A stretch of 64,000 bases of DNA from Candidatus Woesearchaeota archaeon (lineage in GTDB: Archaea > Nanobdellota > Nanobdellia > UBA10117), in NCBI GenBank assembly GCA_964354105.1, contig CAYGXM010000003.1, positions 789-64,788 on the forward strand. The letters are read 5' to 3'. A program made the position numbers and the translations under genes. How positions within the stretch are numbered: the first letter of the stretch is position 1; each line of letters opens with the position of its first letter. The notes below the pieces were generated by a model. The model made no database searches. It was not told where the DNA came from and was given only the letters and a program-made list of their open reading frames with translations. Of the stretch, positions 3,389-27,073 are shown piece after piece.

Positions 3389-4693
3389 ATGGAGGCTGCT
3401 AGGGAGAAGGAAAAAGGAAAGCTTGCCAAGAAAGCCGGCAAGAAAACACTTGCAGGAATGTCTTGGCTTGGAAGAAAAACTGGGAAGCTTTTCAGGGATT
3501 CTATTCTTTTGGCAAGGCCTTTGAACAAAAAAGAAAGCTTTGTATTTTCAAAAGTCCGGCCATACTTAAAAGAAGGCGAGGAATTCAAGCTGCAGAAAGC
3601 GATTAAGCAAGGCAAGGCTAAGATCAAATTAAACAGATACGGCTGGTCTTTTCTCATTTCTGGAAATGACCTGCGGCCAAAAATCTTTTTTGTAAAGCCC
3701 GAGAAAAGAAGATTGAATCCGGATCATGATATAGAGGAAAAGCAGCAATTTTGGATAGAAGAATTGGACAAAAGAATCCGGAGACAATTTTTTGAACATA
3801 ATTTCCGGGAATTTGCAGAAAAAGCATGGACAGCAGCGCCACAATTCATTGGGCCAAATATTATTGGGTTAAAACATGTCAAGGAAGCTGCAGCTTTGCA
3901 GTTGTTTTGCAAAGAGCAGACTCATATTTTATTGCTTGGAGACCCTGGAACAGGAAAAACTGATATTTTGCGGTCAACTGCAGATTTGAATCCAATATCT
4001 GTATTTGGATTGGGCTCAGGAACATCAGGAGTCGGCTTAGCTGTTACAGTAAAAGGAAAATATGTGAGTCCTGGATTGTTGCCGAAAGCAGATTTGGGTT
4101 TGGCATGCATAGACGAATTAAATCTGATGAAGAAGGACGATTACGCGGCCCTGTACAACGCAATGGAAAAAGGCTTCATCACATATGACAAAGGAGGGCA
4201 TCACTACAGGTTTAATGCCCGCATTAAAGTATTGGCTACTGGAAATCCAAAAGGAGATAAATTTACAGCCTATGATTTGGAAACTGTAAAATCACAAATT
4301 CCTTTTGATTCTGCGCTTTTATCGAGATTCCATTTAGTTTTTATTGTAAAGAAGGCGACATTAAATGAATTTTCAGAAATTGCAGAAAAGATAATTTCTG
4401 AAGACAAAGTAAAAATAAATCTTGCAGATATTTTATTCTTGAAGAATTATGTTCGTTTTGTAAACAAATTAGATGCAGAAATCCCACATAATCTTGCTGA
4501 AAAAATCAAGGACTTTGTAACAAATCTGAAGGAAAAGGAAGCAGAACTGCCATTTGAGATAACCCCAAGAACAGTAATCGGAGTTACAAGACTGGCAAAA
4601 GCATCAGCCAGGATGGAACTAAGAAGTATTGTAGAAGGAAAAGATTTGGACAGGGTATTTAATATTATTACAAAAGCATATTTACTCTCATGA
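3389..4693 (+). CDS. MCM-family AAA+ ATPase without a recognisable MCM N-terminal domain
   Basis: Walker A LLLGDPGTGKT, Walker B ACIDELNLM, sensor-1 VLATGNP and an Arg-finger-like SRFHLVF occur in MCM-like order and spacing. Only about 160 Lys-rich aa precede the ATPase core, and no OB-fold or Zn motif was seen. Confidence 0.7.
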   Translation: MEAAREKEKGKLAKKAGKKTLAGMSWLGRKTGKLFRDSILLARPLNKKESFVFSKVRPYLKEGEEFKLQKAIKQGKAKIKLNRYGWSFLISGNDLRPKIFFVKPEKRRLNPDHDIEEKQQFWIEELDKRIRRQFFEHNFREFAEKAWTAAPQFIGPNIIGLKHVKEAAALQLFCKEQTHILLLGDPGTGKTDILRSTADLNPISVFGLGSGTSGVGLAVTVKGKYVSPGLLPKADLGLACIDELNLMKKDDYAALYNAMEKGFITYDKGGHHYRFNARIKVLATGNPKGDKFTAYDLETVKSQIPFDSALLSRFHLVFIVKKATLNEFSEIAEKIISEDKVKINLADILFLKNYVRFVNKLDAEIPHNLAEKIKDFVTNLKEKEAELPFEITPRTVIGVTRLAKASARMELRSIVEGKDLDRVFNIITKAYLLS

Positions 4694-23478: not shown

Positions 23479-23961
23479 ATGCCAGAGAAAACAAACAAAT
23501 TAGAAAAACTGAAAGCAGAATATGACAAATTAAAACAGAAATATAAATTACCACAATTTGATGAGCTGAATAATGAATTTGAAATTTATGATATCAAAAC
23601 AAATTCTTTCATAATAAGGGAAATAAGCAGAAGGATTATCCGCAAGGCAGAAGATTTTCTCAGCATGTTGAATCCGATTCTAAACCCAAATCCAAACAGC
23701 CTGCACAGCATAATTGAAACAAAGATTTTCGAGAAGCAGGATTTGGAGCCGATGTTTGATTTTTACAGGAAATTATTCCAGCTGGCGCATAAAGGCATAA
23801 CTGCCTCTTTCGAATCTGAAGCTGTAGAAGCTGCATGGATAAATGAAGTTTGGAAAGCCTGGCCAGAAATTAAAAAACAAATTGCCGGCTATAGCAAGAA
23901 GATAACTGAAGGCTGGGGCAAAGTAGAAAAAGAAGTTTTTACAGATAAATATTTGGGCTAA
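23479..23961 (+). CDS. hypothetical protein (160 aa)
   Basis: ATG-started ORF with a TATA-like AAGCTTAAAAACC centred about 28 nt upstream, which suggests a leaderless mRNA. No motif recognised. Confidence 0.5.
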   Translation: MPEKTNKLEKLKAEYDKLKQKYKLPQFDELNNEFEIYDIKTNSFIIREISRRIIRKAEDFLSMLNPILNPNPNSLHSIIETKIFEKQDLEPMFDFYRKLFQLAHKGITASFESEAVEAAWINEVWKAWPEIKKQIAGYSKKITEGWGKVEKEVFTDKYLG

Positions 23962-23980
23962 GGGGAAGTCCTTAATGCAA

Positions 23981-24026
23981 GCGAAATTCATATTTCGCTG
24001 CACAACAAAATCTTTAAGATTTTGTT
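23981..24026 (+). terminator. two consecutive hairpins downstream of 23479..23961
   Basis: GCGAAAT-TCAT-ATTTCGC (23981-23998) and AACAAAATCT-TTA-AGATTTTGTT (24004-24026). Confidence 0.35.
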
Positions 24027-24103
24027 TGTGTCAGAGAAAGCTTAACTTGCCGCTAACAATGCTTGTAAACTTTTTGCAGACATTTACAGATTCACCTTTG
24101 GCA

Positions 24104-24117
24104 AACCTCTTAAAAGT
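24104..24117 (+). promoter_or_regulatory. TATA-like box for tRNA-Pro
   Basis: AACCTCTTAAAAGT, with its core centred 27.5 nt upstream of the tRNA 5' end at 24139. Confidence 0.45.
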
Positions 24118-24138
24118 ATGATACTAACTATTGGTTCT

Positions 24139-24382
24139 GGGGCTGTAGTCTAACTTGGTAGGACATATCCTTGGGGTGGTCGTCCACAAGCGCAGCTTGA
24201 TGTGCTTGTTCGATTGAAACAAAATGGGTATAATCTGAGTTCAAACAGCCTGCGGAGCTGTAAGATGCTCCTCAGAAAGCAAAGCCCTAGCTGAATAAAA
24301 TTCAGCGGGGACCAGAAAAAGTGCGATACTTTTTCTTGGTCTTGTCTCTGCTTGTTCGGCTGAGAAAATCTCAGCAGCCCCA
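24139..24382 (+). tRNA. tRNA-Pro (anticodon GGG) with two predicted introns (48 nt at 37/38, 123 nt at 59/60 in the T-loop)
   Basis: Acceptor GGGGCTG/CAGCCCC. D arm GTCT-AACTTGGTA-GGAC. Anticodon arm TATCC-TTGGGG[intron 24177-24224]T-GGGTA. Variable TAAT. T arm CTGAG-TTCAAA[intron 24246-24368]T-CTCAG. Discriminator A. The mature length would be 73 nt, and G37 fits Pro. Confidence 0.75.
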
Positions 24383-24387
24383 TTTTT

Positions 24388-24831
24388 ATGGTGCACATAC
24401 CGAAAGATACGCTCGAGAGAATCCTAGAAGAAGCGAACTCAGTAGTGGGAACTAAATTATACACTGCAATGGAAAAGGCCTGCCTAAAAGTTCTTCATAA
24501 TGGTTCATACGGCTTGCAACTGGTTGAACTTAATTACATCTCATTTTCTGGCGGCAAATTTGTAGCTAAGCGCAAAAAAATACCATCTCCTGCAGAATTG
24601 TCTGCACAATATATAGCCAAAAAACTATTGGACAGAGGCGCAATTTACACCAGATCCAGCCCTCTTGCCGATGAGAACTGCTCCATACAATCTGCAAGGC
24701 AGGCTTTTAGATATCTAAAAACTGTAAGGGCAGTAAAAATTCACCGCACAAGCCGTCAAGGTTCAGTCGTCACATATAAAGTAATAAATAGAAGAAAATT
24801 AAAGGAGATTGCTGAAGGTAATTTTACATAA
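24388..24831 (+). CDS. hypothetical protein, paralog A of a tandem pair (147 aa)
   Basis: The ATG is 5 nt after the tRNA-Pro 3' end. It shares LE+xLExAN near the N-terminus, KFVxxxKxIPSPxxxxAQYxAKK in the middle and an identical C-terminal IAEGNFT with the next gene. Confidence 0.55.
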   Translation: MVHIPKDTLERILEEANSVVGTKLYTAMEKACLKVLHNGSYGLQLVELNYISFSGGKFVAKRKKIPSPAELSAQYIAKKLLDRGAIYTRSSPLADENCSIQSARQAFRYLKTVRAVKIHRTSRQGSVVTYKVINRRKLKEIAEGNFT

Positions 24832-26912: not shown

Positions 26913-27073
26913 CCCGCCTTAGCTCAGACTGGTTAGAGCGCCTGGCTGTAGACAGCACTTATCGCTAGATAAGCACTGAATTATAGCGCTCAGAACCCGG
27001 GAGGTCGCTGGTTCAAAGAAAACAGCGAAGCTGTTTAGGCTTTACTGCTTTCGAACAGATCCGGCAGGCGGGA
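26913..27073 (+). tRNA. tRNA-Tyr (anticodon GTA) with two predicted introns (44 nt at 37/38, 42 nt at 59/60)
   Basis: Acceptor CCCGCCT/AGGCGGG carries C1:G72, the archaeal/eukaryal Tyr identity pair. Anticodon arm CCTGG-CTGTAG[intron 26952-26995]C-CCGGG. Variable AGGTC. T arm GCTGG-TTCAAA[intron 27018-27059]T-CCGGC. The mature length would be 75 nt. Confidence 0.8.

What the first reader, a model, noticed from the sequence alone, without database searches (positions are those of the whole stretch)
24139..24382. tRNA-Pro(GGG) with a 123-nt highly structured intron in the T-loop (59/60)
The gene spans 244 nt for a 73-nt mature tRNA. Intron 2 (24246-24368) is closed by CAGCC/GGCTG (24246-24250 with 24358-24362). 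It contains three strong hairpins: GGAGC/GCTCC (24254-24271), GCTGAAT/ATTCAGC (24290-24306) and AGAAAAAGT/ACTTTTTCT (24314-24336). That is a four-way-junction-like fold of its own. It is far longer than typical archaeal tRNA introns. I found no C/D-box motifs (no RUGAUGA), so if it has a function it is not an obvious guide sRNA. tRNA-Tyr has a 42-nt intron at the same 59/60 site.
Basis: seen in the sequence. Interest (0 to 1): 0.6.

Follow-up and report, generated by a model that had tools for sequence, protein, structure and literature searches.

The report
Long mosaic intron in archaeal tRNA-Pro
This is a real proline tRNA gene of a tiny DPANN archaeon, interrupted by two introns; the unusually long 123-base one is an ordinary protein-spliced archaeal intron that grew by picking up a copy of a neighbouring intron and a small hairpin insert, and close relatives carry shorter versions or lack it.

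Summary
Removing 24177-24224 (48 nt, position 37/38) and 24246-24368 (123 nt, position 59/60) leaves a 73-nt tRNA-Pro(GGG).

Relatives define the boundaries independently. One allele with an identical exon 1, intron 1 and exon 2 joins 24245 directly to 24369. Syntenic orthologues without introns score as normal tRNAs.

Both junctions sit in a relaxed bulge-helix-bulge register (T stem, 3-bp TTC/GAA helix, 3-nt bulges).

The 123-nt intron is not one conserved structured RNA. It is a mosaic:
- A 23-nt 5' piece.
- A 39-nt copy, 90% identical, of the intron family that relatives carry at 37/38 and in the D-loop.
- A 56-nt double-hairpin insert (24285-24340), absent from the 67-nt version in a relative and homologous to an intergenic hairpin array in another relative.

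Across syntenic orthologues the three intron sites occur in 7 of 8 possible combinations while the exons stay conserved. No C/D box, Rfam match or RNA data support a separate function.

Verdict: this is a new, unusually long member of the known non-canonical archaeal tRNA introns. Its value is as a snapshot of intron turnover in DPANN.

The parts
24110..24119 (+). TATA-like box (TTAAAAGTAT), about 25 nt upstream of the tRNA 5' end; presumed archaeal promoter
   Evidence: Read directly from the sequence. Relatives have CTTAAAAC/ATTAAAAAC at the same distance. This is an inference; it was not tested.
24139..24176 (+). Exon 1 of tRNA-Pro(GGG): acceptor 5' strand, D arm, anticodon stem 5' strand and loop up to G37
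   Evidence: It is identical in L136, L138 and L154.
24177..24224 (+). Intron 1, 48 nt, canonical position 37/38; member of the TCCTCAGC...TGCTTG intron family
   Evidence: Splicing-motif register: outer helix 5 bp, central helix 3 of 4 pairs, 3' bulge AA|T. It is 88% identical to the 37/38 intron of L138. Intronless orthologues exist.
24225..24245 (+). Exon 2: position 38, anticodon stem 3' strand, 4-nt variable loop, T stem 5' strand, T-loop T54-A59
24246..24368 (+). Intron 2, 123 nt, position 59/60 in the T-loop
   Evidence: The exact empty site 24245|24369 occurs in alleles from runs X1 and X4 and in L151, L154, L142, L179 and L181. The constrained fold gives T stem + UUC/GAA + bulges AAA and AAU + CAGCC/GGCUG.
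24246..24268 (+). 5' piece of intron 2: closing-helix strand CAGCC and most of hairpin GGAGC/GCTCC, which runs to 24271
   Evidence: It is identical in L136. X4 has 24247 A>G, which keeps a G.U pair.
24269..24284 (+). First half of the embedded intron-family copy (TCCTCAGAAAGCAAAG)
   Evidence: With 24341-24363 it matches the 37/38 intron of L178 at 35 of 39 positions. Alignment score 58 against 14.9 +/- 2.7 for shuffles, 0 of 2000 as high.
24285..24340 (+). 56-nt double-hairpin insert (hairpins 24290-24306 and 24311-24341)
   Evidence: It is absent from the 67-nt version of the intron in L136. It is homologous to the intergenic hairpin array downstream of tRNA-Pro in L138-L140, with a compensatory change in the first stem. 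Its 5' junction is seen independently in run X4. It is not in a bulge-helix-bulge register.
24341..24368 (+). Second half of the intron-family copy, then GGCTG (closing helix), AGAA (central-helix strand) and AA (3' bulge)
   Evidence: Positions 24341-24363 match the 37/38 intron of L178 at 23 of 23. GAA at -5..-3 is present in all five distinct T-loop intron types.
24369..24382 (+). Exon 3: T60, T stem 3' strand, acceptor 3' strand, discriminator A; no encoded CCA
24383..24387 (+). TTTTT run directly after the tRNA; likely archaeal terminator. It abuts the ATG of the next ORF (24388).
   Evidence: Read from the sequence; inference
23978..24031 (+). 54-nt double-hairpin module in the upstream spacer. 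Not part of the gene, but the same kind of small insert as 24285-24340.
   Evidence: It is absent at this site in L142 and L141. A 92-94% identical copy lies downstream of tRNA-Tyr in L142, and that site is empty in L146 and L147.

Best explanation
The feature is a functional tRNA-Pro(GGG) gene of a Woesearchaeota-like DPANN archaeon, carrying two protein-spliced (EndA-type) introns.

How splicing most likely works (inferred):
- In the precursor, the T stem (49-53/61-65) stacks on a 3-bp helix formed by T54-T55-C56 and the intron bases GAA at -5..-3.
- That helix is flanked by a 5' bulge (A57-A59) and a 3' bulge (A, A, U60).
- The intron helix CAGCC/GGCUG closes the motif.
- This is a relaxed bulge-helix-bulge. 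The splicing endonuclease cuts it at 59/60 on both sides, RtcB-type ligase joins the exons, and the intron is released, probably as a circle, and degraded.

Why the intron is long (shown by comparison): it is not one designed fold. It reached 123 nt in steps, from three pieces:
- A short 59/60 intron.
- A nearly full-length copy of the intron family that relatives carry at 37/38 and in the D-loop.
- A 56-nt double-hairpin module that landed in the apical part of the family hairpin.

The intron is dispensable. It behaves as selfish or neutral DNA that is gained, lost and reshuffled between alleles.
For: The spliced product is tRNA-Pro(ggg).

Syntenic intronless orthologues score 55.5 and 51.6 bits against Rfam tRNA, and ARAGORN calls them tRNA-Pro(ggg).

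The empty site 24245|24369 occurs in an allele identical over 107 nt, intron 1 included.

The exons are 73/73 identical in four different intron configurations. In other alleles most changes fall in stems: 6:67, 7:66 and 51:63 change on both sides and keep the pair, 50:64 becomes a U.G wobble and 3:71 a G.U wobble.

The splicing-motif register fits. Only 30 of 18,749 possible excisions fit it, and both introns are among them. The constrained fold shows T stem, a 3-bp helix and two 3-nt bulges. GAA at -5..-3 is kept in five T-loop intron types with unrelated interiors.

Mosaic origin is shown in four ways:
- The embedded copy matches the L178 37/38 intron at 35 of 39 positions, with 0 of 2000 shuffles scoring as high.
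- The intron-family alignment has compensatory changes in 5 of 7 hairpin pairs.
- The 56-nt piece is missing in L136.
- That piece is homologous to the L138 intergenic array.

Precedent: a 59/60 relaxed hBH intron is cleaved in vitro by the ARMAN-2 endonuclease, and ARMAN-2 tRNA-Pro(GGG) has a 59/60 intron (PMC3239211). Disrupted tRNA genes are known in DPANN, including Woesearchaeota (PMC5829648).
Against: There is no RNA evidence: no RNA run holds the stretch, so splicing is inferred.

The central helix has 3 pairs plus an A.A mismatch rather than 4 pairs. One A sits opposite the 5' bulge, so the motif is relaxed and needs a broad-specificity endonuclease.

The 67-nt core is 97% identical between WIN and L136 while flanking genes are 76-87% identical. 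That could also mean selection on the intron sequence.
Confidence: 0.72

Rival explanations
1. The long intron hosts a functional stable RNA, for example a circular intron-derived sRNA. Its hairpins would then be selected for a job of their own, as with the C/D-box guide in the Haloferax tRNA-Trp intron.
For: The fold is strong (z = -4.3). The 67-nt core is 97% identical to L136 while flanking coding DNA is 76-87% identical. The X4 variant 24282 A>G would restore a pair with CTCTGC. The first hairpin of the insert shows a compensatory change relative to L138.
Against: The intron is absent in the closest relatives by flanking gene (L151, L154) and in an allele with an identical intron 1.

The other T-loop introns at this site have unrelated interiors.

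The insert breaks the conserved family hairpin.

There is no RUGAUGA/CUGA pair and no Rfam match at any threshold.

The hairpin module also lives in an intergenic spacer in a relative.
Confidence: 0.1
2. The 123-nt stretch is not spliced. This copy would be a tRNA gene disrupted by insertions and on its way to being a pseudogene.
For: There are no RNA data. The standard finders miss the gene. The splicing motif is relaxed. Small insertion modules are active around this locus.
Against: The exons are 73/73 identical to alleles with other intron configurations, and one intronless allele differs at a single position. A pseudogene would have drifted.

The insert boundaries coincide with a bulge-helix-bulge register that only 0.16% of possible excisions satisfy.

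The promoter-like box and T-run are intact.

The 67-nt and 99-nt versions keep the same termini.
Confidence: 0.08
3. The intron is kept because it protects the tRNA gene. It would interrupt the recognition site of tRNA-targeting homing endonucleases or integrases present in this genome, so intron-bearing alleles spread by selection or homing.
For: L149 carries a LAGLIDADG/HNH-like gene about 1.5 kb from tRNA-Pro. The intron distribution is patchy and disagrees with the flanking-gene tree. Randau and Soll proposed protection against integration, as cited in PMC4033280.
Against: I did not test any link between an endonuclease and the tRNA-Pro T-loop. Intronless alleles persist in several lineages. 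The hypothesis does not need a 123-nt intron.
Confidence: 0.1

Closest known systems
[quoted passage not shown]
   Same: The superphylum, intron position and even isoacceptor are the same. The bulge-helix-bulge is relaxed and built on the T stem. Excision by a broad-specificity EndA is presumed.
   Different: This intron is about ten times longer (123 against 13 nt), mosaic in origin and polymorphic among close relatives. Cleavage has not been tested here.
Transposed intron families of Thermoproteales (Fujishima et al. 2010, as summarised in PMC4090602 and bioRxiv 10.64898/2026.10.13.758758)
   Same: [quoted passage not shown] Here one family occurs in the D-loop, at 37/38 and inside the 59/60 intron, and probably in tRNA-Tyr at 59/60.
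   Different: The copies lie within one gene and across alleles of one orthologous locus in DPANN, not across many tRNA types in Crenarchaeota. One copy is embedded inside another intron rather than forming the whole intron.
Haloferax volcanii tRNA-Trp intron (about 105 nt) that encodes a C/D-box guide sRNA (from my own knowledge)
   Same: It is a long archaeal tRNA intron of about 100 nt or more, excised through a bulge-helix-bulge.
   Different: That intron is at 37/38, is conserved and has C/D boxes with known targets. This one has no boxes, no Rfam hit and no conservation of its interior.
Small palindromic insertion elements (MITE- or REP-like)
   Same: The 56-nt insert and the 54-nt upstream module are double hairpins. 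They appear or are missing at precise sites, and near-identical copies occur at other loci in relatives.
   Different: I could not define clear terminal inverted repeats or target-site duplications for these two modules. Copy number in the genome is unknown.

Membership tests
Archaeal EndA-spliced (bulge-helix-bulge) tRNA intron | Removal restores a canonical cloverleaf tRNA | tested here: met
   The 73-nt product is called tRNA-Pro(ggg). It differs at only 1-4 positions from some intronless orthologues, which pass the Rfam tRNA threshold.
Archaeal EndA-spliced (bulge-helix-bulge) tRNA intron | Bulge-helix-bulge or relaxed variant at the exon-intron junctions, with cuts in the two bulges | tested here: met
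   It is met in relaxed form: a 5-bp outer helix (the T stem), a 3-bp central helix plus an A.A mismatch, bulges AAA and AAU, and inner helix CAGCC/GGCUG. Only 30 of 18,749 possible excisions fit the register.
Archaeal EndA-spliced (bulge-helix-bulge) tRNA intron | Orthologous genes without the insert join the exons exactly | tested here: met
Archaeal EndA-spliced (bulge-helix-bulge) tRNA intron | The genome encodes a splicing endonuclease able to cut relaxed motifs (specific-loop insert) | not testable with these tools
The literature reports L3-loop EndAs in several DPANN lineages (PMC5829648).
Archaeal EndA-spliced (bulge-helix-bulge) tRNA intron | Spliced RNA and/or excised intron observed | not testable with these tools
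   No RNA run holds the stretch.
Intron-hosted C/D-box guide sRNA | C box RUGAUGA and D box CUGA forming a k-turn, plus a guide complementary to rRNA or tRNA | tested here: not met
   The intron has no RUGAUGA. CUGA occurs only inside hairpin stems. No snoRNA or sRNA family matches even at E up to 10.
Self-splicing group I / group II intron | Match to the ribozyme core | tested here: not met
   Rfam gives nothing at gathering score or by E-value. At 123 nt the intron is too short.
Transposed or duplicated tRNA intron family (Thermoproteales type) | Significantly similar intron sequences at different positions or in different tRNA genes | tested here: met
   The T-loop intron against the L178 37/38 intron: 35 of 39 identical. 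The D-loop intron against 37/38 introns: alignment scores 30-37. All gave 0 of 2000 shuffles as high. The tRNA-Tyr 59/60 intron against the L151 37/38 intron: 0 of 1000 (weaker). The family alignment shows compensatory pairs.
MITE-like mobile mini-element (for the 56-nt insert only) | Copies at unrelated sites, precise presence/absence, terminal inverted repeats and target-site duplication | tested here: inconclusive
   Presence/absence and a second context are shown. No other copy lies in the 64-kb window. Inverted repeats and target duplications are not evident. A genome-wide count was impossible.

The most novel reading that the evidence does not exclude
tRNA introns in this Woesearchaeota-like lineage may be actively mobile DNA.
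- One intron family has copies in the D-loop, at 37/38 and inside the 59/60 intron of the same tRNA-Pro gene, and probably in tRNA-Tyr.
- It appears to move between diverged lineages: 97% intron identity against 76-87% in flanking genes, and a distribution that disagrees with the flanking-gene tree.
- The three sites reassort almost freely (7 of 8 combinations).
- The introns act as landing pads for double-hairpin mini-elements of about 55 nt.

If so, this locus is a natural time series for the unsolved question of how archaeal tRNA introns arrive.
Probability: 0.4. Interest if true: 0.7.

Novelty: new member of a known kind. Interest (0 to 1): 0.42.

Why it matters
As a gene feature it is ordinary. 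It is a non-canonical archaeal tRNA intron at a known site, and standard tRNA finders miss it, so this tRNA-Pro would be reported as missing from the genome.

What is useful is the population picture. Nearly identical alleles exist with and without each of three introns. One intron is copied into another, and a hairpin module is inserted in a third step.

A 2026 survey of Asgard archaea concluded that the route by which tRNA introns arrive remains open (bioRxiv 10.64898/2026.10.13.758758). Intron copying has so far been argued mainly for Thermoproteales. This DPANN locus offers dated intermediate states on which recombination, homing or transposition models could be tested.

Tried and rejected
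- Rfam, at gathering score and at E up to 10 over 23900-24600, gave only chance hits.
- ARAGORN on the raw window does not see the gene.
That scan was wasted.
- The viral-contig scan for the start of the insert (GCAAAGCCCWAGCTGAA) gave 23 hits, none extending beyond the 17-mer. This gives no sign of a viral origin.
- I tested whether the 56-nt insert is a nested bulge-helix-bulge intron. It has only 1-3 of 4 central pairs and an outer helix of 1-2 bp, so I rejected this.
- C/D and H/ACA readings were rejected on sequence.
- No other copy of the intron, the insert or the upstream module lies in the 64-kb window.
- An RNA-seq search found no run.
- Earlier-notes look-ups by sequence found no look-alike stretch outside this window.
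There was therefore no EndA search, no genome-wide repeat count and no check for a second tRNA-Pro(GGG).

Full report
**1. The observation**

The sequence at 24139-24382 reads as follows:
- Exon 1: GGGGCTG TA GTCT AACTTGGTA GGAC A TATCC TTGGGG
- Intron 1: 48 nt
- Exon 2: T GGGTA TAAT CTGAG TTCAAA
- Intron 2: 123 nt
- Exon 3: T CTCAG CAGCCCC A

Removing 24177-24224 and 24246-24368 gives 73 nt that ARAGORN calls tRNA-Pro(ggg). ARAGORN and Rfam do not find the interrupted gene.

The third stem is longer than stated (24311-24341). The intron alone folds to -46.4 kcal/mol, z = -4.3, with 0 of 200 shuffles as good. The fold is a closing helix with three branches.

**2. Independent definition of the boundaries**

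Contigs from sediment metagenomes, laid on the window, include three informative alleles:
- One is identical over 24139-24245, intron 1 included, and continues directly with TCTCAGCAGCCCCATT. This is the exact empty site 24245|24369.
- Others have no intron at all.
- One 2399-nt contig has intron 2 without 24285-24340.

The 160-aa gene upstream of the tRNA has 30 homologues, and the contigs that encode them gave syntenic loci. Intron lengths in the orthologous tRNA-Pro(GGG) are listed below:

| Locus | D-loop | 37/38 | 59/60 |
|---|---|---|---|
| WIN (this window) | 0 | 48 | 123 |
| L136 | 0 | 13 | 67 |
| L178 | 41 | 41 | 99 |
| L138-140 | 41 | 49 | 42 |
| L149 | 0 | 40 | 44 |
| L142-148 | 40 | 45 | 0 |
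| L154 | 41 | 40 | 0 |
| L141 | 40 | 0 | 0 |
| L151 | 0 | 42 | 0 |
| L179-181 | 0 | 0 | 0 |
| L007 (genome collection) | 0 | 0 | 41 |

That is 7 of the 8 possible combinations of three intron sites.

The intronless orthologues score 55.5 and 51.6 bits on Rfam tRNA, and ARAGORN calls them tRNA-Pro(ggg).

The exons are 73/73 identical among WIN, L136, L138 and L154. Elsewhere most changes fall in stems: 6:67, 7:66 and 51:63 change on both sides and keep the pair, and 50:64 becomes a U.G wobble. The gene is therefore under selection as a tRNA in every configuration, which implies that the inserts are removed from the RNA.

**3. Splicing motif**

In the standard register, four exon bases are followed by a two-base bulge before each cut. 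Both introns then have:
- the adjacent tRNA stem as a 5-bp outer helix;
- 3 of 4 central pairs (TTGG/ACAA at 37/38; TTCA/AGAA at 59/60);
- a 3' bulge AA|T.

No slid boundary does as well. With the T stem enforced, the T-arm precursor folds as T stem + UUC/GAA + 5' bulge AAA + CAGCC/GGCUG, with one A opposite the bulge, + 3' bulge AAU.

Only 30 of 18,749 possible excisions in the gene meet the criterion, and both introns are among them.

GAA at -5..-3 of the intron recurs in all five distinct T-loop intron types, although their interiors are unrelated. The inner helix co-varies: GCC/GGC in WIN, GCAC/GTGC in L178 and GCGC/GCGC in L007.

This is a relaxed bulge-helix-bulge. A 13-nt 59/60 intron of that kind is cut in vitro by the ARMAN-2 enzyme, and ARMAN-2 tRNA-Pro(GGG) also has a 59/60 intron (PMC3239211). 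Increased tRNA gene disruption in DPANN lineages with loop-bearing EndAs is described in PMC5829648.

Splicing here remains inferred, because no RNA run holds the stretch.

**4. What the 123 nt are made of**

(a) An embedded intron copy. Positions 24269-24284 plus 24341-24363 (TCCTCAGAAAGCAAAG + CTTGTCTCTGCTTGTTCGGCTGA) match the 37/38 intron of L178 at 35 of 39 positions, and the last 23 of 23. The alignment score is 58, against 14.9 +/- 2.7 for dinucleotide shuffles, with 0 of 2000 as high.
- The D-loop introns of relatives belong to the same family (scores 30-37, 0 of 2000).
- An alignment of 12 family members has a conserved hairpin with compensatory changes in 5 of 7 pairs.
- The tRNA-Tyr 59/60 intron of the window is a weaker match (0 of 1000).

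(b) A 56-nt insert. Positions 24285-24340 are absent from L136, whose 67-nt intron is otherwise 65/67 identical.
- The insert lies in the apical part of the family hairpin.
- It is not in a bulge-helix-bulge register, so it is not a nested intron.
- It is homologous to a multi-hairpin array 35 nt downstream of tRNA-Pro in L138-140: GCAAAGCCC[T/A]AGCTGAA..TTCAGCGGGG, then CCAGAAAA..TTTTCTTGG.
- The first stem shows a compensatory change, T.A to C.G.
- Both junctions share short identities with the intron (GCAAAG, CTTG), which suggests recombination.
- A read-length contig from another sample confirms the 5' junction of the insert.

(c) L178 carries a 99-nt intron with the same start (CAGC) and the same end (GAGAAAA) but different hairpins inside.

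Long, hairpin-rich 59/60 introns are therefore recurrent in this lineage, but their interiors are interchangeable.

**5. Evolutionary behaviour**

On a tree of the upstream protein, WIN groups with L151, L153, L154 and L138 (support 82/87), and L136 is the most distant. Yet only WIN and L136 share this T-loop intron, at 97% identity, while their flanking genes are 76-87% identical.

L141 and L142 have identical upstream proteins but differ by a whole 37/38 intron.

The pattern fits reshuffling of intron-bearing alleles by recombination through the conserved exons, or lateral spread of the introns. It does not fit a vertically inherited functional RNA.

Similar small inserts are active nearby:
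- A 54-nt double hairpin (23978-24031) is present upstream of tRNA-Pro only in the window. A 92-94% identical copy lies downstream of tRNA-Tyr in L142, at a site that is empty in L146 and L147.
- L179 and L180 have an insert of about 85 nt with inverted ends downstream of tRNA-Pro.

**6. Comparison with what is known, and verdict**

Position, motif and host group match known non-canonical DPANN tRNA introns. The copied intron family matches the Thermoproteales "intron transposition" picture (PMC4090602). [quoted passage not shown]

There are no C/D boxes, no H/ACA features and no Rfam match.

I file the feature as a new, unusually long member of a known kind. The suggestion of an autonomous structured RNA is not supported.

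The locus deserves moderate interest for what it shows about intron turnover, not for the intron's fold.

Noticed in passing
window 23978-24031; L142 4123-4176: A 54-nt double-hairpin module lies between CCTTAATG and TCAGAG upstream of tRNA-Pro and is absent there in relatives. A 92-94% identical copy sits downstream of tRNA-Tyr in L142, where L146 and L147 have an empty site. It looks like a tiny mobile element that lands next to tRNA genes.
   Followed up: partly
window 26913-27073; L142 about 3950-4070: The 42-nt 59/60 intron of tRNA-Tyr is also polymorphic. L142, L146 and L147 have the same gene with an identical 37/38 intron but TTCAAATCCGGC uninterrupted. The Tyr T-loop intron resembles the tRNA-Pro intron family (score 29, 0 of 1000 shuffles).
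   Followed up: partly
L138 3596-3720 (also L139, L140): An array of four hairpins, three built on TGAAC..GTTCA-like cores, lies between tRNA-Pro and the promoter of the next gene. It is absent in L142, L149 and L154. It is the source or a sibling of the 56-nt insert in the window's intron.
   Followed up: partly
L179 about 2150-2235 (also L180): An insert of about 85 nt lies downstream of an intronless tRNA-Pro. It has inverted ends CACAATGTTTGG / CCAAACGTTGTG and a possible ACT duplication, which is MITE-like.
   Followed up: no
window 23962-24138 and 24383-24388; L151, L179, L181: In several relatives the tRNA starts 5-6 nt after the stop codon of the upstream gene, with no room for a promoter. 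The window has a 177-nt spacer with a TATA-like box. The next ORF's ATG (24388) follows the tRNA by 5 nt, all T. Together these suggest tRNA-mRNA co-transcription.
   Followed up: no
window 23479-23961: The 160-aa protein upstream of tRNA-Pro has no Pfam hit, but one source labels a homologue 'RNA processing factor Prp31'. It is syntenic with tRNA-Pro in every relative I examined.
   Followed up: no
L141 vs L142: These two contigs have identical upstream proteins, but one has a 45-nt 37/38 intron and the other none. This marks a very recent gain or loss.
   Followed up: partly
L151 tRNA-Pro, positions 12 and 24: Both partners of a D-stem pair changed (C:G to A:A), leaving a mismatch in an otherwise conserved tRNA.
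   Followed up: no
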